From an uncultured Aliarcobacter sp. (GTDB lineage Bacteria; Campylobacterota; Campylobacteria; Campylobacterales; Arcobacteraceae), in NCBI GenBank assembly GCA_963664305.2, contig CAXXLV010000002.1:1600001-1664000 (forward strand): a DNA stretch of 64,000 nt, written 5' to 3'. Each line of letters starts with the position of its first letter. Position 1 is the stretch's first letter. The translations under genes were made by a program, and so were the position numbers. The notes under the pieces were generated by a model. The model had not been told where the DNA came from, made no database searches, and saw only the letters and a program-made list of their open reading frames with translations. Shown piece by piece: positions 40,935 through 49,693 of the stretch.

Positions 40935-43049
40935 TCAATTATCTTTCGTTTCATTTGATAAATATTCATACAAATACAAATATTGTCTTAACTCTTTTAG
41001 GCTTTCAAGTTTAATTCCCTCTTCTATCCAAGCTTTAATATTTGAAGGAATTTCAAGTGGTTTTAATAACTCCTCTTTCTTCTTTTTTGAAATTTTTTCA
41101 TGTTCTGCTAATACTGAAATATGACCCAGAATTGAAGTTAATCCTAAATCTCTAATTTGTGCAATTTCTTCTACACTTTTTCCTTCATTTAAAAGTTCAT
41201 AAGTTTCAAGATATGTTTTTGTGAGTTTCTTTAATGGCTCTTTATTTTGTAATTTTTCTTTGTATTCTTCTTTTATCTCTTTAGATAAATTTAAAAAATC
41301 TTCTCCATATTTTTCATACTTTACAAGACCAACACCATTTATATTTAACATATCATCTTTTGTTATTGGAAGTTTTAAAGCAAACTCTTTTAAAGTCTTA
41401 TCACCAAAAATAACATAAGCTGGAACTTCATGTTCTAATGCAATCTCTTTTCGTAAAGTTCTAAATCTTTCGTAAATCAACTCATCAAAACTCAGTTCTG
41501 TTTCTTCCTCTTGGATTTTTGAAGCTACACCTAATTTATCACTATCTATAAAAAGTTTCTCTTTTCCTTTTAATATTTCTAATCCTAAAGAGCTTATTTT
41601 CAAAGCTCGAAATTCCCCTAAATTTAAAGCTTCTATATCTATTAATTTATCAGCAATTGCTATCCATTCATTTTTACTTTTATCAATTCCTAGATTATAA
41701 ACACTTAATTTATCATGTTCTAACTCTAAAAGTTTTTGATTTTTTGAACCCCTTAAAATATCTATGATGTGATTTAGTCCAAATCTTTGTTCACTTCTAT
41801 AAATAGCACTTAAAAGTTTTTGAGCATCAACACTTACATCTACAAGTTCAACTTCACCTTTTGTACAGTTATCACATAGAGTTTTACAAGCTTCAATCTC
41901 ATCTTCAAAATAACCTGCAATCATTTTATGACGACAATTATTACTCACACAATACCTATACATAAATTCCAATTTATCAAGGGCAGTTTGTTTGTATTCA
42001 TCATCAATAGCTTCTTCGATTTGTATTTTTCTTTTTACCTCATCACTTTTTGAATAAAGCATATAAACATAAGACATTTCACCATCACGCCCTGCCCGAC
42101 CGATTTCTTGATAGTAATTTTCAAGGGTTTTAGGTAAACTTGTATGTATTACAAAACGAATATTTGATTTATCAATTCCCATTCCAAAAGCGATGGTTGC
42201 TACTACAATATCTATTTTTTCATATACAAAATCATTAAAAACTTCATTTTTTCTGTCACTACTAAGCCCTGCATGATAGGCTTTTGCACTATATCCATTT
42301 TCACTCAAAAACTCTGCTGTTGATTCTGCTTCTTTTCTTGTAAAAGTGTAGATGATTCCACATAAACCTTTGTGAGTTTTTAAGAAGTTTAGTATTTGAG
42401 TTTTTCCGTTTGCTATTCGTGGTTCTACTTTTATATCAAGATTATCTCTTACAGTTTTTGCTCTAAAATGTTTTGGATTTTGTAAATTCAAAGATGAAGC
42501 AATATCAGCTTCAACTTTTTTTGTAGCAGTTGCAGTAAATGCACAAATTGAAGTATTTGGGAAAAATCTTTTTAGTCTATCAAGATTTCTATACTCAGCT
42601 CTAAACTCATGTCCCCAAGCAGATACACAATGGGCTTCATCTATTACAAAATAGTTTATATTTATTCGCTGTAAAACTGCTACGAATTCATTTGAAGTAA
42701 ATCTTTCAGGTGCAACATAGATAAATTTTAACTCCCCATTTAAAAGCTTTAGAAGAGTAAAACTATTTTCATCATTTGAAGTTGCTGAACTAATCATATC
42801 TGCACTAATATTTAAATCATTCAGAGCTTTTATCTGGTCTTGCATAAGTGCAATAAGAGGAGAAATTACAACAGTAGTTCCTTCCATAAGAAGAGTTGGA
42901 AGTTGATAACAAAGTGATTTTCCTCCACCTGTTGGCAAAATTGTCAAAACATCTTGTTTTGCAAGAATTGTATCAACAACTTCTTCTTGGAAAGAACGAA
43001 AAGTATCGTGTCCGAAAATATCTTTTAGTATTTGGTATTTTTTATTCAT
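40935..43049 (-). CDS. recQ: ATP-dependent DNA helicase RecQ
   Basis: PTGGGKSLCYQLP, DEAHC, ATIAFGMGID, QEIGRAGRDG, Zn-binding Cys, RQC, HRDC; start 43049 (alternative 43064). Confidence 0.97.
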   Translation of the reverse strand: MNKKYQILKDIFGHDTFRSFQEEVVDTILAKQDVLTILPTGGGKSLCYQLPTLLMEGTTVVISPLIALMQDQIKALNDLNISADMISSATSNDENSFTLLKLLNGELKFIYVAPERFTSNEFVAVLQRININYFVIDEAHCVSAWGHEFRAEYRNLDRLKRFFPNTSICAFTATATKKVEADIASSLNLQNPKHFRAKTVRDNLDIKVEPRIANGKTQILNFLKTHKGLCGIIYTFTRKEAESTAEFLSENGYSAKAYHAGLSSDRKNEVFNDFVYEKIDIVVATIAFGMGIDKSNIRFVIHTSLPKTLENYYQEIGRAGRDGEMSYVYMLYSKSDEVKRKIQIEEAIDDEYKQTALDKLEFMYRYCVSNNCRHKMIAGYFEDEIEACKTLCDNCTKGEVELVDVSVDAQKLLSAIYRSEQRFGLNHIIDILRGSKNQKLLELEHDKLSVYNLGIDKSKNEWIAIADKLIDIEALNLGEFRALKISSLGLEILKGKEKLFIDSDKLGVASKIQEEETELSFDELIYERFRTLRKEIALEHEVPAYVIFGDKTLKEFALKLPITKDDMLNINGVGLVKYEKYGEDFLNLSKEIKEEYKEKLQNKEPLKKLTKTYLETYELLNEGKSVEEIAQIRDLGLTSILGHISVLAEHEKISKKKKEELLKPLEIPSNIKAWIEEGIKLESLKELRQYLYLYEYLSNETKDN

Positions 43050-43109
43050 TTTGGATGGTAACATAGTTTGAATAAGGGGTTAGTAAAAGGTATTTAGTTA
43101 TATTTATAA

Positions 43110-44447
43110 CTAATACATTTGAATATCCTTTTCCATTTCTTTAATACTTTTATAAATTAATTTATTAAATATATATTCAATTTCATTAGATTTGACATTT
43201 TTCAAATTAAAAATATCAATTAATATCTCTCTTTTTTCATCTTTTGTTAAATCTGAAAAATTTGGTATATATTTTGTATTTGTTCTATTTTTTAAAATCT
43301 CAAAATAAGTTCGAATAAATTTTTTAACTTCTTTTTTATCATATTCAATATTGAATTTTTTAAACATATTTAATATAAAAGTATCTAATCTAAATAAAAG
43401 AGTGGTGTCATTGATTTGAGAGAAAAAATATAACCAACCATATTTTTTACCTTCAAATTTACAACCAGTAATTTTTAAATTTAATTTCCAATATAAAAAA
43501 TTTATATTTTGTTCTTTTGAATGTTTATACTGTGTGAAAATATTTATTATTGATGTATGCAAGTTATCGATAGAAGATTTTCTAACTGATATTAAATTAT
43601 TACTATATGAATAACCTAGGAAATAAAAAGTATCACTTAAACTTCCTATCTCAGTTTTATCTTTACTTTTCCCTATTTCATGTATTTTTAAATCTAAATT
43701 ATTCATATCATTTTCTAACAATTTAAATACACTAAATGTATCTTGTTTATTACATAGAATTAATATATCATCAACATATCTAAAGTATTCATAGTTTATT
43801 TGGGAAGAATGTTTCTTGTCAAATTCTATAAAATAAATTGAAGCAAGTATATTTGATATTGATAGTCCTTGAGGTACACCTTTGTTATTAGAATATTTTT
43901 CAATATATCTATTACTTTTATTTACCGTTTCTTGTTTTATTGATTTGATTAATAAATCTGTAAATTGAATTTTTTTAGTTCTTTTATATAGAAATTTAAC
44001 TAATATTTCATGATTTATAGAGGGATAAAAATTTTCTATATCCGTTTTAATATAGCTATCAAATTTACCACTTTGAATACTTGTTTTTATTTTATTTATT
44101 TTTGAATGAATTAATTCATTTGTTAATTCCTCTTCAAATATCTCATTCAATGTATTAAAAATAATTTTTAGTACTATTTTATCTCTTATTGTAGGAATTG
44201 AAATTATTCTTGGAAATTTATTTTTACCTTTTGAAATTAATTTTTCTTTATAAAATGAAAAATTATATGTTTTATTCAAAATTTTCCTATTTATTAATTC
44301 AAACTCAGAATTTTGTTTTTTTTCATAACTTTTAATATTTATGCCATCAATTCCTATTGATGGCTTATTCTTAATAGTATCATCAAAAACTTTTTTTATA
44401 TTTTTTATTTTGATATTTTTATTAAATATCCTGAATGGATATTTCAT
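43110..44447 (-). CDS. Reverse transcriptase, defence-associated UG/Abi type (UG17/DRT10-like)
   Basis: GIDG (RT0), PRIISIPTIRDKI, TDIENFYPSINH, GVPQGLSISNILASIY, RYVDDILI, YFLGY; no retron VTG/NAxxH, no endonuclease; ATGA-coupled to a SLATT gene. Confidence 0.9.
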   Translation of the reverse strand: MKYPFRIFNKNIKIKNIKKVFDDTIKNKPSIGIDGINIKSYEKKQNSEFELINRKILNKTYNFSFYKEKLISKGKNKFPRIISIPTIRDKIVLKIIFNTLNEIFEEELTNELIHSKINKIKTSIQSGKFDSYIKTDIENFYPSINHEILVKFLYKRTKKIQFTDLLIKSIKQETVNKSNRYIEKYSNNKGVPQGLSISNILASIYFIEFDKKHSSQINYEYFRYVDDILILCNKQDTFSVFKLLENDMNNLDLKIHEIGKSKDKTEIGSLSDTFYFLGYSYSNNLISVRKSSIDNLHTSIINIFTQYKHSKEQNINFLYWKLNLKITGCKFEGKKYGWLYFFSQINDTTLLFRLDTFILNMFKKFNIEYDKKEVKKFIRTYFEILKNRTNTKYIPNFSDLTKDEKREILIDIFNLKNVKSNEIEYIFNKLIYKSIKEMEKDIQMY

Positions 44448-45007
44448 TGAAAAGATATACTTACAATTAAAATAATAACTGGAAGTATGACTAAAAAGAA
44501 AAGTGTAACAAAATCTCTAATTTTATACATCCATCTTTTTACACTTTTTTCAAATGTCCATTTTCCATTAATTTCTTCATACTTTTTTTGGTTTCTAACT
44601 TCATGCATTACTTGTAAATAATCATTTTCCGAATGATTTTCTGTTAAACTAATTATCATATTATATTGATTTTTCAAATCACTATAATCTTCTTTATTAT
44701 TTTCTTTTTTGAGAATATCATCATATAATTTTGCCATCAGTACATATGATGTTTGAAGTATCAAGGCTCTTTCTTTATAATTCATTGCAAAAATAAAAAT
44801 TGATACTATAACTATCAATATAGATAAAATTAATGTTAATATTTCAAAATTTATATTTTCACATTTAATATCAACAATAGTAATTGCAATTATAAAAAAA
44901 GAATAATATGCAATCAATATTTGAGAAATTAAATCATTTCTCTTAAATCTTTCAGAAGTATTAATTCTAGATTTTCTTGTTTTCCATACATTATCACTAA
45001 AAGCCAT
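44444..45007 (-). CDS. SLATT-domain membrane effector (SLATT_5-like)
   Basis: N-terminal WKTRKSRINTSERF helix, two TMs, helical region with ENHS, third C-terminal TM; adjacent to RT. Confidence 0.82.
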   Translation of the reverse strand: MAFSDNVWKTRKSRINTSERFKRNDLISQILIAYYSFFIIAITIVDIKCENINFEILTLILSILIVIVSIFIFAMNYKERALILQTSYVLMAKLYDDILKKENNKEDYSDLKNQYNMIISLTENHSENDYLQVMHEVRNQKKYEEINGKWTFEKSVKRWMYKIRDFVTLFFLVILPVIILIVSISFQ

Positions 45008-45031
45008 ATAAAGTCCCTATTAAAGTTAAGA

Positions 45032-45159
45032 GTAAAGTTCCCAAAAAATTAGTTTAAAATGTCTTAAAATAAGACCTATAAATAAAATGTAAACATTTAT
45101 TAATTAGTTATGTTTCAAAAGTGAAACCTATCTTTTTGTAGAAAGATAAGGAACTTTAC
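45032..45159 (-). ncRNA. RT-associated structured ncRNA (about 128 nt)
   Basis: Perfect 10-bp closing stem 45150-45159/45032-45041 enclosing four hairpins (45129-45148, 45112-45127, 45081-45101, 45061-45075); starts 7 nt after a TATAAT box. Confidence 0.8.
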
Positions 45160-45165
45160 ATGATT

Positions 45166-45171
45166 ATTATA
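45166..45171 (-). promoter_or_regulatory. Sigma70 -10 box for the ncRNA-SLATT-RT transcript
   Basis: TATAAT on the minus strand; predicted start 45161-45159 coincides with the 5' end of the closing stem. Confidence 0.7.
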
Positions 45172-45310
45172 TTTTAAAACTAATAATAATTAAATAAAAA
45201 TTATTTTTATATCTAAAGTTTTATTTAATCAATTTTTTAAATAAAGTGAAAATACTAATTTTATTATTTATGATATATATCGAGAATGCAAAAACACCCT
45301 CAATATAAAA

Positions 45311-45913
45311 TTATTGTCTTTGTTTCATTTGATGATTTAAGAACTCTTCTTTACTAATATTTCCATCTTTATTAGTATCTATATCTGAAAATGATGGTTG
45401 ATTATCAATATTTTTCATCATTCTTCCTTCAGATAGTTTTTCTTCCATTCTTTTCTCTCTAGCTTCTTCCATCTCTTTAGTACTAATCATTCCATCATGA
45501 TTCATGTCATAATTTTCAAAACTTGGCATATTAAAATGTTGTCCCATTCCTTGACCCATCATACCTTGCCCAAAGCCTTTGTTTCCTTGATTAAGTTGCA
45601 TTTGTTTATTTTGACCTTTTAATAACTCTATTTCAGTCAATTTTCCATCTTTATTTGTATCAAACATACTAAAATCTGGAGCATTATCTATATTTCTCAT
45701 AGGCATTCCTGCTTCTTGTTTTTGCTCCATTCTTTGTAGTCTAATATCATTGAACTCTTTTTCACTTACAAATCCATCTTTATTTGTATCATAAGTTGAG
45801 AATTCTATCGGACCTCGATTTGATATATCTTCTGCATTAACAGTGCTTATCATAATAGATAAAGAACTAGCAACAACTAAACCTAATTTAACTGTTCGTG
45901 ATAAATTTTTCAT
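45311..45913 (-). CDS. Secreted EF-hand protein with Met/Gly/Gln-rich linker
   Basis: Signal peptide; four loops DTNKDGFVSEKE, DTNKDGKLTEIE, DMNHDGMISTKE, DTNKDGNISKEE; start 45913 after AAGGA. Confidence 0.85.
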   Translation of the reverse strand: MKNLSRTVKLGLVVASSLSIMISTVNAEDISNRGPIEFSTYDTNKDGFVSEKEFNDIRLQRMEQKQEAGMPMRNIDNAPDFSMFDTNKDGKLTEIELLKGQNKQMQLNQGNKGFGQGMMGQGMGQHFNMPSFENYDMNHDGMISTKEMEEAREKRMEEKLSEGRMMKNIDNQPSFSDIDTNKDGNISKEEFLNHQMKQRQ

Positions 45914-45982
45914 TATCTCATCCTTTTTATTTAGATGATTCATTCTACTCTTTATTTAATATAATTACCATAACTTAATTTA

Positions 45983-47275
45983 TTATTTTAAAACGACTTT
46001 TACTTTATCTAAACTATTTGTGTTAGCAAAGTCATTTATAAGAGTTGCTAATTGTAAAACATCACTATTTTTCATTCTAATACAACCAGCTGATTCATTT
46101 GTACCAATTGTTTTTTCATTTAAAGTTCCATGTATTCTATATGTACTTTTTCCATCAACAATATGCGTAAGATTTATTTTAGCTGCACCCATATAGTTAT
46201 ATTTATCTCCAGGAGGTACAACAGAAGGAAGATTTATTCCTCTTTTTCTAAAACTTTTTATTGTATCAGCTGTTGGATACCAAACTGGGTTTAAAGAAAT
46301 TTGAGAGATTTTTCCAACACCAAAAGGTTTTTTTACATCATCTTTTCCAGTTGAAACTCTGTAAGTTTTTATCTCTTTTAAATGGTCATCTATTTGAGCT
46401 TTTACTGTCATATAATTTGTAACAGAATTTACTTCAATAATAAGTTGTTGATAATCTGAAATATTTGCTTCAATATCTTCTTCAACTTCTTTTAAAGGTG
46501 TAGGTTTAATTTCTTCTTTTTTAGGTATCTCTTTTTTGATTACTTTTGGTTTTTCATAACTTTTTGTGATTTTTTGAACTTTTTCTTTTTTTTCAAGTTG
46601 CTCATTCGCTCTATCAAATTCATCCATACTGATTTGTCTTAACTCTTCTTCGTATGAAGCAATTTTTTCATCATTTTCTTTTTCTTCTTTAGCACTCTCT
46701 TCTTTTGCTAAAGGTACAACCTCCTCTTTTATTTCTGGTTTTTCTTCCACATCTTCATCATCTACAAATCTTTTTCCCTCAGCAAATGGATAAGAACTAA
46801 CTAATTTAAACTCTTCTGTATTTGGAACAGCAGAAACCAAAGGAAACTCTTCTACTTTTTTTAAAGGAACAGTTACTTCATTTTCTTTTGGTATTACTGT
46901 TTCAACTATTTCTTGTTGAATTACTGAATCTTCTAAATCAATATAAACTTTTTTATTGTTCTCTTTTAATTTTAATACTTTTTCTTCTAACTCTTTTACA
47001 TAAGGTTTTTGTTGTTTTACATAAGTTGAAGAATTTTTTATAGTTTGATTAGCAATTTTTTTATCATCATAAACATTTAAATATGTAAAATATCTATTCT
47101 TATCTTTTACAATAAGTACTTCTGCATTCATACTATCTAGTATTCGTTTTTTACAAGTTAATGCATTTTCTAGATTTGAAGTTACACAAACTGAAATAGT
47201 ATATTTTTGCGTATTTGCAAAAACAAAAGAACTATTAAAAATAATAAATAATAAAGTTAAAATTTTTCTAATCAT
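45983..47275 (-). CDS. L,D-transpeptidase (YkuD family) with N-terminal SPOR-like domain and acidic linker
   Basis: Signal peptide; NPVWYP, RIHGT...ESAGCIRM catalytic motif. Confidence 0.88.
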   Translation of the reverse strand: MIRKILTLLFIIFNSSFVFANTQKYTISVCVTSNLENALTCKKRILDSMNAEVLIVKDKNRYFTYLNVYDDKKIANQTIKNSSTYVKQQKPYVKELEEKVLKLKENNKKVYIDLEDSVIQQEIVETVIPKENEVTVPLKKVEEFPLVSAVPNTEEFKLVSSYPFAEGKRFVDDEDVEEKPEIKEEVVPLAKEESAKEEKENDEKIASYEEELRQISMDEFDRANEQLEKKEKVQKITKSYEKPKVIKKEIPKKEEIKPTPLKEVEEDIEANISDYQQLIIEVNSVTNYMTVKAQIDDHLKEIKTYRVSTGKDDVKKPFGVGKISQISLNPVWYPTADTIKSFRKRGINLPSVVPPGDKYNYMGAAKINLTHIVDGKSTYRIHGTLNEKTIGTNESAGCIRMKNSDVLQLATLINDFANTNSLDKVKVVLK

Positions 47276-47428: not shown

Positions 47429-48655
47429 ATGTTCATGTTCACTGATGATGATTTTATTGAACTTAACTCAAAATTTTACACAACTTGTAAACCTCAATCA
47501 AGAATTTTTACACTACTTACTGTACCTGCTGCTTTATTTGCAATTGTATTAGTATGTTATTTAGGATTTTTGCCTTTAAAAGTTGAAATTCACAGTGTTG
47601 TTTTAATCGGTTTTATATTTTTCATTTACCTATTCTTTGTAAAACACAATGCCTATTTTGTTTCTTGTAAATTTAAAACTCAATATTCAGAATTGGTTTT
47701 TTATCTAAAAGAATATATCAATAAAAACTTATTAACAATTGGTGAAACAACTAAAGCAAATGGAAGTGTTGATGACTTTTTAAAAGACTATACAAGTAAT
47801 ATAAGAAATACAAATTTCTCTTCAATCGCTTCTGGAATTTTCCCAACACTAGGAATTTTAGGAACATTTATCTCTATTGCATTTAGTATGCCTGATTTTA
47901 CTTCTGGAACAACAAGTGCTTTAGAATCTGAAATTTCAAAACTTTTAGGTGGAGTTGGAACTGCCTTTTATGTTTCAATTTATGGTATTTTCTTATCAAT
48001 TTGGTGGATATTCTTTGAAAAAATTGGAATGAGTAGATTTGACCATGATACTTTTGTAATCAATGAAAATACTAAACATTTTTTCTGGACAAAAGTTGAT
48101 ATTGAATCAATTCACATAAAAAGTAATTTAGATAACTTTACAAAAATGAGTGAAGTATTTAATCAATTAACATCAAGCAATATTTTAGAAAATATTAACT
48201 CTTCAATCGAACATAGATTTGAAGTTTTAGAAGAGATATTAAAAAAAGAGCTAATTTTATCTTCTAAAATTGCAGAAAATATTGATAATAATGAAAGATT
48301 ATCAATGATGTTAAAAGATATGACTTTAAATATGCAAACGACAATAAAAAGCTTTGAAAAACAAAAAGATTTATATGCTTTAAATGCAGAATTATTAAAT
48401 GCAAATATTGAAAAATTAAATTCTCACATGGGGAACTTAAGTTCAGATAATTTAAAAGCAATTTATACAAATATTGTAAAAAGTATCGAAACTATGAAAA
48501 GTGATATGGAAAAAATTGAATGGAAATTTAAACAAGGTCTTGAAGAGTATGATGAAAATATTACTTTTAGATTGAAAAACTCTCTTGAGTTAATAGATGA
48601 AGAGACTACAAAAATCATAAAAGATTTTAAAGAATTTAAAGAAATATCAAAGTAG
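47429..48655 (+). CDS. MotA/TolQ/ExbB-family (ZorA-like) membrane protein with long helical tail
   Basis: FPTLGILGTFISI and GTAFYVSIYGI TM motifs, about 200-aa helical C-terminus; start may be 47435. Confidence 0.8.
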   Translation: MFMFTDDDFIELNSKFYTTCKPQSRIFTLLTVPAALFAIVLVCYLGFLPLKVEIHSVVLIGFIFFIYLFFVKHNAYFVSCKFKTQYSELVFYLKEYINKNLLTIGETTKANGSVDDFLKDYTSNIRNTNFSSIASGIFPTLGILGTFISIAFSMPDFTSGTTSALESEISKLLGGVGTAFYVSIYGIFLSIWWIFFEKIGMSRFDHDTFVINENTKHFFWTKVDIESIHIKSNLDNFTKMSEVFNQLTSSNILENINSSIEHRFEVLEEILKKELILSSKIAENIDNNERLSMMLKDMTLNMQTTIKSFEKQKDLYALNAELLNANIEKLNSHMGNLSSDNLKAIYTNIVKSIETMKSDMEKIEWKFKQGLEEYDENITFRLKNSLELIDEETTKIIKDFKEFKEISK

Positions 48656-48661
48656 TAAAAA

Positions 48662-49693
48662 ATGTACAATAAAGAACAAAAAAATGATGAAAACTTTTGG
48701 ATATCTTATGCCGATTTAATGGCAGGATTACTTTTTGTATTCATCTTAGTAATTGGAGCTATTGTAATAAAATATGTTTATACACAAAGTAATTTAGAAA
48801 AAGAAAAAGCAGCTTTAAACTCAAGTGAAGAGGCAAAATCAAAACTTTTTTATGAATTAGCAAAAGCAAAAAATCTATACGAAACTACAAAAAGTGATTT
48901 AGATAAAGCAGCATCTGAACTAAAAGATAAAGATAATAAAATCTCTTTAAATCTTGCAGAAATTGAAAAATTAAAAGCTTTACTTTTAGAGTATGAATTA
49001 AATGTAAAAGATGAAAAAAGTAAAAATGAGAAGTTATCAGCAGAATTAACTGAAAAAACAAATATGATTAGTTTAAAAGATGAAGAGTTAACTATGCTTG
49101 CTGATAAGTTATTAGTTCAAACACAAATTCATCAAAAAATGGTTGAAGAGTTTGATATAGCAAAAATCAAAATCAAAAACTTAACAGGTATAAAATTAAC
49201 TGTTATTGCAAAACTAAAAGAAAAACTTGGAAAATCAATTAATATAGATGAAAAAAGTGGAGCTATAAAATTCTCTTCAAATATTTTATTTGACCAAAAC
49301 TCTTATATTTTAAAAGAAGATGCAAAAAAAGAACTAAGTAATACTCTAAAAAAATATTTGAATACTTTGCTTGGCGATAAAGAGATGAAAAAATATATTG
49401 AAAGTATTACTATTGAAGGACATACAAATAGTGATGGAACTTATCTTTCAAATCTTTCATTATCTCAACAAAGAGCACACGCAGTTATGCAGTTTTTATA
49501 TGATTCTAATATCATAGATAAAAATCTTTTATCAACTTATGTAAATTCAAGTGGAAGATCTTCTTCTGATTTGATTTTAAATAAAGACGGAGTTGAAGAT
49601 AAAGATGCTTCAAGAAGAATAGAGATTAAATTTACAATAAAAAATGAAGAAGCTATAAGAGAAATTCAAAATTATTTAGGTGAGAAAAAATAA
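48662..49693 (+). CDS. MotB/OmpA-family (ZorB-like) protein
   Basis: FWISYADLMAGLLFVF TM with conserved Asp, coiled coil, IEGHT...NLSLSQQRA...SRRIEI peptidoglycan-binding domain. Confidence 0.85.
   Translation: MYNKEQKNDENFWISYADLMAGLLFVFILVIGAIVIKYVYTQSNLEKEKAALNSSEEAKSKLFYELAKAKNLYETTKSDLDKAASELKDKDNKISLNLAEIEKLKALLLEYELNVKDEKSKNEKLSAELTEKTNMISLKDEELTMLADKLLVQTQIHQKMVEEFDIAKIKIKNLTGIKLTVIAKLKEKLGKSINIDEKSGAIKFSSNILFDQNSYILKEDAKKELSNTLKKYLNTLLGDKEMKKYIESITIEGHTNSDGTYLSNLSLSQQRAHAVMQFLYDSNIIDKNLLSTYVNSSGRSSSDLILNKDGVEDKDASRRIEIKFTIKNEEAIREIQNYLGEKK

What the first reader, a model, noticed from the sequence alone, without database searches (positions are those of the whole stretch)
45042..45131. 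Pseudo-symmetric ncRNA with two telomerase-like A-B-A' templates; predicted 11-nt cDNA repeats
Seen: the RNA holds two similar modules, AUAG-GUUUCA-loop-UGAAAC-AU-AACUAAUU (45131-45102) and AUAG-GUCUUA-loop-UAAGAC-AUUUUA-AACUAAUU (45079-45047). The stems differ by compensatory changes (UUUC/GAAA versus UCUU/AAGA). Immediately 3' of each hairpin is an A-B-A' tract with 11-nt period: AUAA-CUAAUUA-AUAA (45111-45097, A' overlapping the weak SL3) and AUUUU-AAACUA-AUUUU (45060-45045). Inference: each hairpin is an RT-binding template boundary, possibly two RTs per RNA. Realignment on A/A' would give tandem repeats (AAAATTAGTTT)n and/or (TTATTAATTAG)n; a shorter (TTAG)n register is also possible from module 1.
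Basis: partly seen in the sequence, partly recalled or inferred. Interest (0 to 1): 0.82.

Follow-up and report, generated by a model that had tools for sequence, protein, structure and literature searches.

The report
DRT10 template RNA upstream of SLATT-RT
This stretch is the small non-coding RNA of an already described anti-phage system (DRT10/UG17), which its neighbouring reverse transcriptase copies again and again into tandem-repeat DNA; it is a new member of a known family rather than a new kind of element.

Summary
The sequence features are there as described. They belong to a 128-nt ncRNA (window 45159-45032, minus strand) that heads a ncRNA-SLATT-RT operon. The RT matches PADLOC RT_UG17 at 6e-153 and the partner matches Pfam SLATT_5, so this is DRT10.

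A covariance model found the same RNA beside 58 other UG17 RTs. All 36 modelled base pairs show compensatory changes.

Telomerase-like A-B-A' templating, the pseudo-symmetric RNA and two RTs per RNA are already published for E. coli DRT10 (preprints of 2025-2026). The scan has also met a DRT10 ncRNA before, on other DNA (e1-062098).

Module 2 (SLd plus Loop B, 45060-45043) sits where the known processive template sits.
- A 5-nt register (RNA UAAAC, cDNA GTTTA) fits the geometry of relatives better.

Module 1 (Loop A, 45111-45099) is a motif conserved across the subfamily, not a freely varying template.
- Its 11-nt A/A' match occurs only in this close cluster (1 of 26 representative loops).
- A' runs into a covarying helix.

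A second processive template is therefore unlikely. Neither A-B-A' match exceeds chance on its own. No cDNA data could be obtained.

The parts
45166..45171 (-). -10 box TATAAT, 6 nt before the first base of the RNA
   Evidence: Read from the sequence. Equivalent TATAAT, TAGAAT, TAAAAT or TATTAT boxes lie 6-8 nt before the first G of SL1 in L001-L005 (output). No -35 box was found, so the scan did not list it. The transcription start is inferred, not measured.
45032..45159 (-). DRT10 (UG17) ncRNA, about 128 nt
   Evidence: Model R2 scores it at 90.8 bits, E 5e-13 (as L161:3416-3551). The same RNA was found beside 58 other UG17 RT genes, always on the RT strand. In 51 the gap to the RT is SLATT-sized (532-690 nt); in 7 the RNA lies directly before the RT. 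The ends are inferred from the closing helix.
45149..45159 (-). SL1 5' strand (closing helix), GUAAAGUUCCU
   Evidence: Pairs with 45042-45032. Helix 1: 11 of 11 pairs with compensatory changes, 95.2% paired.
45129..45148 (-). SLa hairpin (UAUCUUU-CUACAA-AAAGAUA)
   Evidence: Helix 2: 6 of 6 pairs with compensatory changes, 97.4% paired.
45112..45127 (-).
   Evidence: Helix 3: 7 of 7 pairs with compensatory changes, 93.0% paired. Flanked by G45128 and A45111; a purine-purine flank is present in 32 of 38 representatives.
45099..45111 (-). Loop A, AUAACUAAUUAAU: conserved motif, probable short-product or abortive template
   Evidence: The core [C/G]UA-N-U-N-AA sits at a fixed distance from SLc. 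The role is inferred from Eco3 Loop A in 10.64898/2026.06.29.735271, section 6.
45085..45098 (-).
   Evidence: Helices 4 and 5: 5 of 5 pairs with compensatory changes, 95.8% and 93.1% paired. AUG/CAU here, GUG/CAC, CGC/GCG and GUAC/GUAC in L001-L005.
45076..45084 (-). Single-stranded linker UAUUUAUAG, ending in the AUAG shared with module 1
45061..45075 (-).
   Evidence: Helix 6: 7 of 7 pairs with compensatory changes, 91.1% paired. Flanked by G45076 and A45060; a purine-purine flank is present in 29 of 38. The boundary role is inferred from Eco3 SL5 (PMC12632851, section 8; 10.64898/2026.06.29.735271, section 8).
45043..45060 (-). Loop B, AUUUUAAACUAAUUUUUU: probable tandem-repeat template. 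Candidate registers: UAA-AC-UAA (45056-45049; 5 nt) and AUUUU-AAACUA-AUUUU (45060-45045; 11 nt)
   Evidence: This is the position of the family's variable loop. Direct repeats are enriched there (0 of 1000 shuffles reach the observed values). The product was not measured.
45032..45042 (-). SL1 3' strand, GGGAACUUUAC; 3' anchor of Loop B
44444..45007 (-). SLATT effector gene (187 aa)
   Evidence: Pfam SLATT_5 2.3e-29. PADLOC RTasSLATT 3.2e-44. Its stop codon overlaps the RT start codon by 4 nt.
43110..44447 (-). UG17 reverse transcriptase gene (445 aa)
   Evidence: PADLOC RT_UG17 6e-153 over residues 6-444. Pfam RVT_1 4.2e-19. Y224-V225-D226-D227 are invariant in 25 homologues. The last residue is Tyr.

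Best explanation
The region is the non-coding RNA of a DRT10 (UG17) anti-phage system, organised as ncRNA, then SLATT membrane effector, then reverse transcriptase.

Transcription and fold:
- The RNA probably starts at G45159, 6 nt after a TATAAT box.
- It folds into a closing helix (SL1) that carries four hairpins and two single-stranded loops.
- The two halves are alike. Each has AUAG, a 6-bp hairpin with a G/A flank at its base, then a loop containing AACUAAUU.
- By homology with the solved E. coli complexes, each half should hold one RT molecule (two RTs per RNA). This is inferred.

Loop B (45060-45043):
- It lies between SLd and SL1 and is the processive template.
- Synthesis is primed on the RT's own C-terminal tyrosine, runs towards SLd and stops a few bases before it.
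- The new DNA end then slips back onto a downstream copy of the same bases (A') and the cycle repeats, giving tandem-repeat single-stranded DNA.
- My estimates for the repeat unit: 5 nt (RNA UAAAC, cDNA GTTTA) about 0.45; an 11-nt or length-variable 9-13-nt unit (TAGTTTA followed by A's) about 0.35; something else or no repeat about 0.2.

Loop A (45111-45099):
- It is a conserved motif that most likely gives only a very short, non-repeating product or serves RT positioning.

How the DNA switches on SLATT is unknown here, and it is still open in the papers read.
For: Shown here:
- RT is RT_UG17, 6e-153, full length; the partner is RTasSLATT/SLATT_5. Stop and start codons overlap.
- The fold is predicted for this sequence and for six Campylobacterota loci.
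- Models R1 and R2 found 59 RNAs among 161 loci, all on the RT strand: 51 of 58 with a SLATT-sized gap, 7 of 58 directly before the RT.
- 36 of 36 pairs have compensatory changes.
- Direct repeats in Loop B are enriched. Mean longest repeat is 3.95 against 3.24 +/- 0.12 in shuffles; 63% against 32% have 4 nt or more; 0 of 1000 shuffles reach either value.
- Each close relative has its own A-B-A': L001 UUAUU-AC-UUAUU, L002 UUAU-AC-UUAU, L003 UUAU-UAC-UUAU.
- Of the 9 other representatives with a repeat of 5 nt or more, 6 have A' starting 9-10 nt from SL1, with 1-4 nt (5 of the 6: 3-4 nt) between SLd and A. The other 3 are perfect tandem duplications whose register is open.
- The window's 5-nt register has spacings of 4 and 9. 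Its 11-nt register has 0 and 7.
- The C-terminal residue is Tyr in 16 of 25 homologues and Ser in 8 of 25.

From papers:
- A-B-A' mechanism and the boundary hairpin (PMC12632851, sections 5 part 1 and 8 read).
- 2:1 RT:ncRNA, Loop A abortive, fixed 5' spacer (10.64898/2026.06.29.735271, sections 5-8, 10, 21 read).
- 2:1 complex and Tyr priming (10.64898/2026.10.08.757509, abstract and section 8).
- Subtypes and the SLATT-RT overlap (10.64898/2026.04.29.721553, sections 28, 29, 35).
Against: - There are no expression, cDNA or defence data for this locus.
- The A-B-A' matches in this RNA are not above chance on their own.
- The choice between 5-nt and 11-nt registers rests on spacings inferred from relatives' sequence patterns, not on measured products. 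If the stop is 3 nt rather than 4 nt from SLd, the 5-nt register fails, because the 3' end would be mismatched.
- The six-U run can accept the DNA end in several registers.
- The covariation alignment was fitted to the model.
- The published E. coli RNAs could not be aligned here.
Confidence: 0.9

Rival explanations
1. Both loops are processive telomerase-like templates, so one RNA yields two different tandem-repeat DNAs: 11-nt units from each loop, or a 4-nt TTAG unit from Loop A.
For: - Engineered Eco3 RNAs with A-B-A' in both loops make both products, and processivity is decided by loop sequence alone (10.64898/2026.06.29.735271, sections 6 and 10).
- Loop A here carries AA at a 4-nt spacing, so the reading AACU|AA is formally an A-B-A' with a 2-nt A.
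- The 8-mer AACUAAUU lies in both loops (1.8% of shuffles), one base apart relative to the 3' anchors.
Against: - The Loop A core is almost invariant across 38 representatives while its first four bases vary freely. There is no co-variation of A with A'.
- The period-11 match is present in 1 of 26 representative 13-nt loops and is broken in L003, L004 and L005.
- A' bases 45098-45097 are paired in SLc, which leaves no 3' spacer. Eco3 loses its product when 2 or more of its 4 spacer bases are deleted (same preprint, section 8).
- With the spacings seen in Loop B of this subfamily (3-4 and 9-10 nt), a 13-nt loop leaves about one copyable base.
- A repeat of 4 nt or more arises in 30-59% of shuffles.
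Confidence: 0.1
2. Loop B gives exactly the 11-nt repeat the reader predicted, (AAAATTAGTTT)n, as a precise product.
For: - It is the longest A/A' match in the loop (5 nt).
- An 11-nt unit with a 6-nt A occurs in a relative, L010.
- Natural units of varied length are reported (PMC12632851, section 8).
Against: - It needs the RT to copy the base that abuts SLd (0-nt spacer). Eco3 keeps a fixed 2-nt distance even when the spacer is deleted (10.64898/2026.06.29.735271, section 8), and relatives with strong patterns show 1-4 nt.
- If only UU or UUU is copied, the six-U run offers several landing sites, so the unit length would vary.
- A' would start with A, which calls for dTTP. Eco3 starts with purine dNTPs (same preprint, section 7).
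Confidence: 0.2
3. The stretch is only the promoter and 5' leader of the SLATT-RT mRNA, or a retron-type msr/msd RNA, and has no template role of the DRT10 kind.
For: - It lies 24 nt before the SLATT start codon, and no terminator was found. Read-through into SLATT is therefore possible.
Against: - Structure is conserved with compensatory changes in all 36 pairs across RNAs whose RTs are only 40-45% identical.
- The RT is UG17, not a retron RT.
- No Rfam family, retron RNAs included, matched at E up to 10 beyond four chance-level hits.
- In 7 loci the RNA sits before the RT instead of before SLATT, so it follows the RT, not the SLATT leader.
Confidence: 0.03

Closest known systems
Eco3DRT10 and Eco1DRT10 ncRNAs (Tang et al. 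2025, PMC12632851; Ramirez et al. 2026, 10.64898/2026.06.29.735271)
   Same: - The operon order is ncRNA-SLATT-RT.
- A closing helix carries smaller hairpins and two single-stranded loops on opposite sides.
- The variable 3' loop carries an A-B-A' pattern just after a stable hairpin.
- The RT has a C-terminal Tyr, as Eco1 does.
- The RNA is of similar size (128 nt against 137 nt).
   Different: - The host is a Campylobacterota bacterium (inferred from the best homologues), and the sequence is very AT-rich.
- The extra hairpin sits between SL1 and the Loop A hairpin. Eco3 has only 4 nt there and has its extra hairpin on the other side.
- The base of both boundary hairpins is a G/A flank rather than the reported G-G pair.
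- Loop A and Loop B share an 8-mer.
UG17-A system of Escherichia sp. E3659 (Sanchez-Nieto et al. 2026, 10.64898/2026.04.29.721553)
   Same: - It is a tripartite module with overlapping SLATT stop and RT start codons.
- Its template loop ACUUAUUACU gives a 7-nt AGTAATA repeat. Relatives L001 and L003 of this window carry UUAUUAC|UUAU, which predicts a rotation of the same repeat.
   Different: - The window's own Loop B has diverged (UAAAC|UAA or the 11-nt reading).
- The subtype of this locus (A, B or C) was not determined, because no reference member was available here.
Telomerase RNA template with template-boundary element
   Same: - A short internal template is copied repeatedly.
- A helix 5' of the template stops the RT.
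- The DNA end realigns on a repeated template segment.
   Different: - Synthesis is protein-primed on the RT itself.
- There are two RTs per RNA.
- It is a bacterial defence system with no chromosome end.
- The likeness in working is taken from the papers and was not tested here.
DRT9 (UG28) and DRT2 (UG2) ncRNAs
   Same: - They are Class 2 UG reverse transcriptases with an upstream template RNA.
- DRT9 is reported to have a similar RNA shape and C-terminal priming (PMC12632851, section 5).
   Different: - DRT9 makes a poly-dA homopolymer from a conserved U tract.
- DRT2 makes a rolling-circle concatemer that encodes a protein.
- The RT here scores far better as UG17 (508 bits) than as Drt2 (63 bits).

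Membership tests
DRT10 (UG17) defence system | Reverse transcriptase of the UG17 clade with an intact catalytic YxDD | tested here: met
   PADLOC RT_UG17 6e-153, residues 6-444 of 445; the next best specific model is RT_UG4 at 3.6e-30. YVDD at 224-227 is invariant in 25 homologues.
DRT10 (UG17) defence system | Adjacent SLATT (SLATT_5) effector gene, with stop and start codons overlapping in the SLATT-RT arrangement | tested here: met
   Pfam SLATT_5 2.3e-29; PADLOC RTasSLATT 3.2e-44. The ORFs 44444-45007 and 43110-44447 overlap by 4 nt.
DRT10 (UG17) defence system | Structured ncRNA upstream: a closing helix with smaller hairpins, conserved with covariation | tested here: met
   59 RNAs, 36 of 36 pairs with compensatory changes, 94.0% paired against at most 50.5% when slid. 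It was not compared directly with the published covariance models, which were not available.
DRT10 (UG17) defence system | Pseudo-symmetric RNA with two loops (A and B), each following a hairpin | tested here: met
   Both halves have AUAG, a 6-bp hairpin and a loop. The purine-purine flank is present at both hairpin bases (32 of 38 and 29 of 38). The loops share sequence beyond shuffles (mean longest common substring 4.58 against 3.96 +/- 0.15, 0 of 500).
DRT10 (UG17) defence system | A-B-A' pattern in the loop downstream of the last hairpin | tested here: inconclusive
   Two candidate patterns are present (5-nt and 11-nt units). Neither exceeds chance on this loop alone (39% of shuffles reach a 5-nt repeat). 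Across the family the enrichment is clear (0 of 1000 shuffles).
DRT10 (UG17) defence system | C-terminal Ser or Tyr as the protein-priming residue | tested here: met
   The protein ends ...EKDIQMY. Of 25 homologues, 16 end in Tyr and 8 in Ser. That it primes synthesis is inferred from 10.64898/2026.06.29.735271, section 7, and 10.64898/2026.10.08.757509, section 8.
DRT10 (UG17) defence system | RT-dependent tandem-repeat cDNA, and phage defence that needs all three parts | not testable with these tools
No tandem copies of the predicted units are in the genome assembly, as expected for an extrachromosomal product.
DRT10 (UG17) defence system | Two RT molecules per ncRNA | not testable with these tools
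The claim is inferred from the published cryo-EM of other members.
   The period-11 match occurs in 1 of 26 representative 13-nt loops. A' overlaps the covarying helix SLc. Loop A's 5' bases vary while the rest is near invariant.
Retron msr/msd RNA | Retron-clade RT, and an RNA matching retron RNA families | tested here: not met
   The RT's best model is UG17. No Rfam match reached a gathering score in 43000-46000.

The most novel reading that the evidence does not exclude
This Campylobacterota clade may carry a natural two-product DRT10 RNA.
- Loop A shares the 8-mer AACUAAUU with Loop B at almost the same distance from its 3' anchor helix.
- Loop A has AA at a 4-nt spacing, so the RT bound there might also add short repeats (unit AGTT or AATTAGTT) and not only an abortive stub.
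- More broadly, the near-invariant Loop A core ([C/G]UA-N-U-N-AA), which is unexplained by the mostly backbone contacts reported for the loops, could encode a conserved short DNA with a role of its own.
Probability: 0.1. Interest if true: 0.5.

Novelty: new member of a known kind. Interest (0 to 1): 0.25.

Why it matters
It adds a Campylobacterota member to DRT10, a family studied so far in E. coli-type systems, and it is rare in its class: only the window's own genome among the 401 searched carries it.

Its practical value is as a test case for the published geometric rule. Two registers (5 nt and 11 nt) compete in one natural loop that ends in a six-U run, so its product would show how strictly the 5' spacer sets the repeat.

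The conserved Loop A core, and the sequence shared between the two loops, may be worth a look by groups working on the abortive side of the complex.

It does not open a new question. The mechanism, the pseudo-symmetry and the 2:1 stoichiometry are already in print.

Tried and rejected
- Public reads. The look-up of sequencing runs listed 22 runs, all kept as assembled contigs.
- Complex prediction for an RT homodimer was not available.
- Rfam scan of 43000-46000 at E up to 10: four chance-level hits, none near a gathering score.
- Promoter and terminator scan: promoter-like sites were no more frequent than in shuffles (11 against 11.5) and there was no terminator. It missed the TATAAT box because no -35 box accompanies it.
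- The genome search over 401 genomes of the class gave no further relatives. The metagenome scan returned mainly distant RTs, with one partial close hit (L081). The close-clade comparison therefore rests on five loci, L001-L005.
- Single-loop shuffle tests cannot support or reject A-B-A' in such AU-rich loops.
- Tandem copies of the predicted units were sought in the genome assembly: none of the seven queries hit, which says nothing about cDNA.
- The subtype (UG17-A, B or C) was not assigned. An RT tree was not built because no reference members were at hand.
- Earlier-notes look-ups found nothing on this genome and two notes on other genomes.

Full report
**1. What is there**

On the minus strand, window 45200-45008 folds into a closing helix that encloses four hairpins and two single-stranded loops (-32 kcal/mol, z = -2.58 against 200 shuffles).
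- The two hairpins are 45127-45112 and 45075-45061. Both follow AUAG.
- Their stems differ at two of six pairs, each by a double change.
- The finding's range covers only part of the element. The RNA most likely runs from G45159 to C45032.
- A TATAAT box lies at 45171-45166. Similar boxes lie 6-8 nt before the first base of the closing helix in five relatives.
- The transcription start is inferred, not measured.

**2. Context**

Immediately downstream lie two genes.
- A 187-aa SLATT_5 protein (2.3e-29; PADLOC RTasSLATT 3.2e-44).
- A 445-aa reverse transcriptase that matches PADLOC RT_UG17 at 6e-153 over its whole length. It has an intact YVDD and a C-terminal tyrosine.
- The SLATT stop codon and the RT start codon overlap.

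This is the DRT10 gene arrangement. The flanking genes are RecQ, an EF-hand protein and an L,D-transpeptidase.

**3. The RNA is conserved**

An alignment of this RNA with five Campylobacterota loci gave a consensus fold of 37 pairs, 19 of them with compensatory changes.
- Covariance models R1 and R2 were searched over the 160 fetched UG17 loci plus the window's own.
- They found 59 RNAs, 50 of them distinct, all on the RT strand.
- 51 of the 58 others lie a SLATT-sized gap (532-690 nt) before the RT. 7 lie directly before it.
- On this alignment all 36 modelled pairs show compensatory changes. 94.0% of cells are paired, against at most 50.5% when partners are slid. 0 of 500 shuffles reach the observed values.
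- The alignment was fitted to the model, which favours the structure. The slide control and the spread of pair types still make the fold secure.
- About 100 other UG17 loci, among them Enterobacterales and Rhizobium, were not hit. This fits the report that UG17 RNA models work only within subtypes (10.64898/2026.04.29.721553, section 28).

**4. What is already known**

- Tang et al. (PMC12632851; sections 5 part 1 and 8 read) defined DRT10. An RT-bound ncRNA sits upstream of SLATT. The RT makes protein-primed tandem-repeat DNA from an A-B-A' pattern in the loop after the last hairpin, and that hairpin sets the 5' boundary.
- Ramirez et al. (10.64898/2026.06.29.735271; sections 5-8, 10 and 21 read) solved two complexes.
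  - Two RTs sit on one pseudo-symmetric RNA.
  - Loop B gives the long repeat.
  - Wild-type Loop A gives a stub of about 10 nt.
  - An engineered A-B-A' in both loops gives both products.
  - The 5' boundary lies a fixed 2 nt from the hairpin.
- Chen et al. (10.64898/2026.10.08.757509; abstract and section 8 read) report the same 2:1 complex, with Tyr priming.
- The scan has also met a DRT10 RNA before, on other DNA (e1-062098).

**5. Loop B (45060-45043, AUUUUAAACUAAUUUUUU)**

- Across 38 representatives (less than 85% alike), Loop B is variable in sequence and is 15-22 nt long.
- It is enriched in direct repeats. The mean longest repeat is 3.95 against 3.24 +/- 0.12 in shuffles, and 63% against 32% have 4 nt or more. 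0 of 1000 shuffles reach either value.
- Close relatives each carry their own pattern: L001 UUAUU-AC-UUAUU, L002 UUAU-AC-UUAU, L003 UUAU-UAC-UUAU.
- Among the nine other representatives with a repeat of 5 nt or more, six have A' starting 9-10 nt from SL1, with 1-4 nt between the hairpin and A (five of the six: 3-4 nt). The other three are perfect duplications whose register is open.
- Right-aligned, Loop B shows a weak Y-U-A at -10 to -8.

The window offers two registers.
- UAA-AC-UAA (45056-45049) has spacings of 4 and 9 nt. Its A' starts on the U of that Y-U-A and directly follows AC, as in L001-L003.

I therefore rate the 5-nt unit (cDNA GTTTA) as somewhat more likely than the 11-nt unit.
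- The 5-nt register fails if the stop is 3 nt rather than 4 nt from the hairpin.
- In that case the six-U run would give units of mixed length.
- On this loop alone neither match beats chance (39% of shuffles reach a 5-nt repeat).

**6. Loop A (45111-45099, AUAACUAAUUAAU)**

- It is 12-13 nt long in most members and carries a near-invariant core at fixed distance from helix SLc.
  - C or G at -9.
  - U at -8 in 37 of 38.
  - A at -7 in 36 of 38.
  - U at -5 in 32 of 38.
  - A at -3 and at -2 in 37 of 38 each.
- The four 5' bases vary.
- A' (45100-45097) lies on invariant bases and reaches two bases into SLc. That helix is 95.8% paired and shows compensatory changes.
- The 4-of-4 match at period 11 occurs in 1 of 26 representative 13-nt loops, the window's own cluster. 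It is broken in L003, L004 and L005.
- No 3' spacer would remain, whereas Eco3 needs most of its 4-nt spacer.
- I conclude that the 11-nt A-B-A' in Loop A is a by-product of the conserved motif.
I give a processive Loop A about 0.1.

**7. Pseudo-symmetry in sequence**

- Both boundary hairpins have a purine-purine flank at the base (32 of 38 and 29 of 38). In the window both flanks are G/A.
- Loops A and B share more sequence than shuffles do (mean longest common substring 4.58 against 3.96 +/- 0.15; 0 of 500).
- The window shares AACUAAUU between the loops (reached in 1.8% of shuffles).
- This fits two like RT molecules reading like sites. In the passages I read I found no statement on conservation of the Loop A sequence. 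Figures were not visible and the bioRxiv supplements were closed, so it may already be shown there.

**8. What could not be done**

- No raw reads were on offer.
- Expression, product and stoichiometry at this locus therefore remain inferred.

**9. Verdict**

The element is a DRT10 ncRNA, a new member of a known kind. The second-template idea is unlikely, and the repeat length is open between 5 nt and about 11 nt.

Noticed in passing
window 47429-48655 (+) and 48662-49693 (+): A ZorA-like (PADLOC ZorA1 3.2e-14; Pfam MotA_ExbB) and ZorB-like (ZorB1 3.9e-59; OmpA) gene pair lies 2.4 kb from the DRT10 cassette. No ZorC/D-like gene sits next to it; the following ORF is on the other strand. It may be a partial Zorya system or an ordinary stator pair.
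   Followed up: partly
L004:1950-2100 (Campylobacteraceae MAG): The SLATT frame of this relative carries an in-frame TAG a few codons after its start. The longest ORF is only 138 aa, against 183-189 aa in the other relatives. This is either a broken gene or an assembly error.
   Followed up: no
L001:1778-1912 and L003:1792-1917, Loop B: Two Sulfurimonas-type relatives carry UUAUUAC|UUAU. This predicts a 7-nt repeat that is a rotation of the AGTAATA repeat measured for Escherichia sp. E3659 (10.64898/2026.04.29.721553, section 35), although their RTs are distant from the E. coli-type systems.
   Followed up: partly
window 45099-45111 and the same loop in 38 representative RNAs: The Loop A core [C/G]UA-N-U-N-AA is near invariant at a fixed distance from the following helix. 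One structure preprint says the loops are contacted mostly through the backbone, so the reason for this conservation is unexplained.
   Followed up: partly
G000 and 400 other genomes of its class: The UG17 RT was found only in the window's own genome among the 401 searched at E <= 1e-40. The cassette is therefore rare in this class and was probably acquired horizontally. Close protein relatives are mostly from metagenomes.
   Followed up: no
RT C-termini, alignment A1: The last residue is Tyr in the 16 sequences closest to the window and Ser in 8 more distant ones. One sequence ends in Ser-Phe. This matches the Tyr/Ser split in priming residue reported between Eco1 and Eco3.
   Followed up: partly
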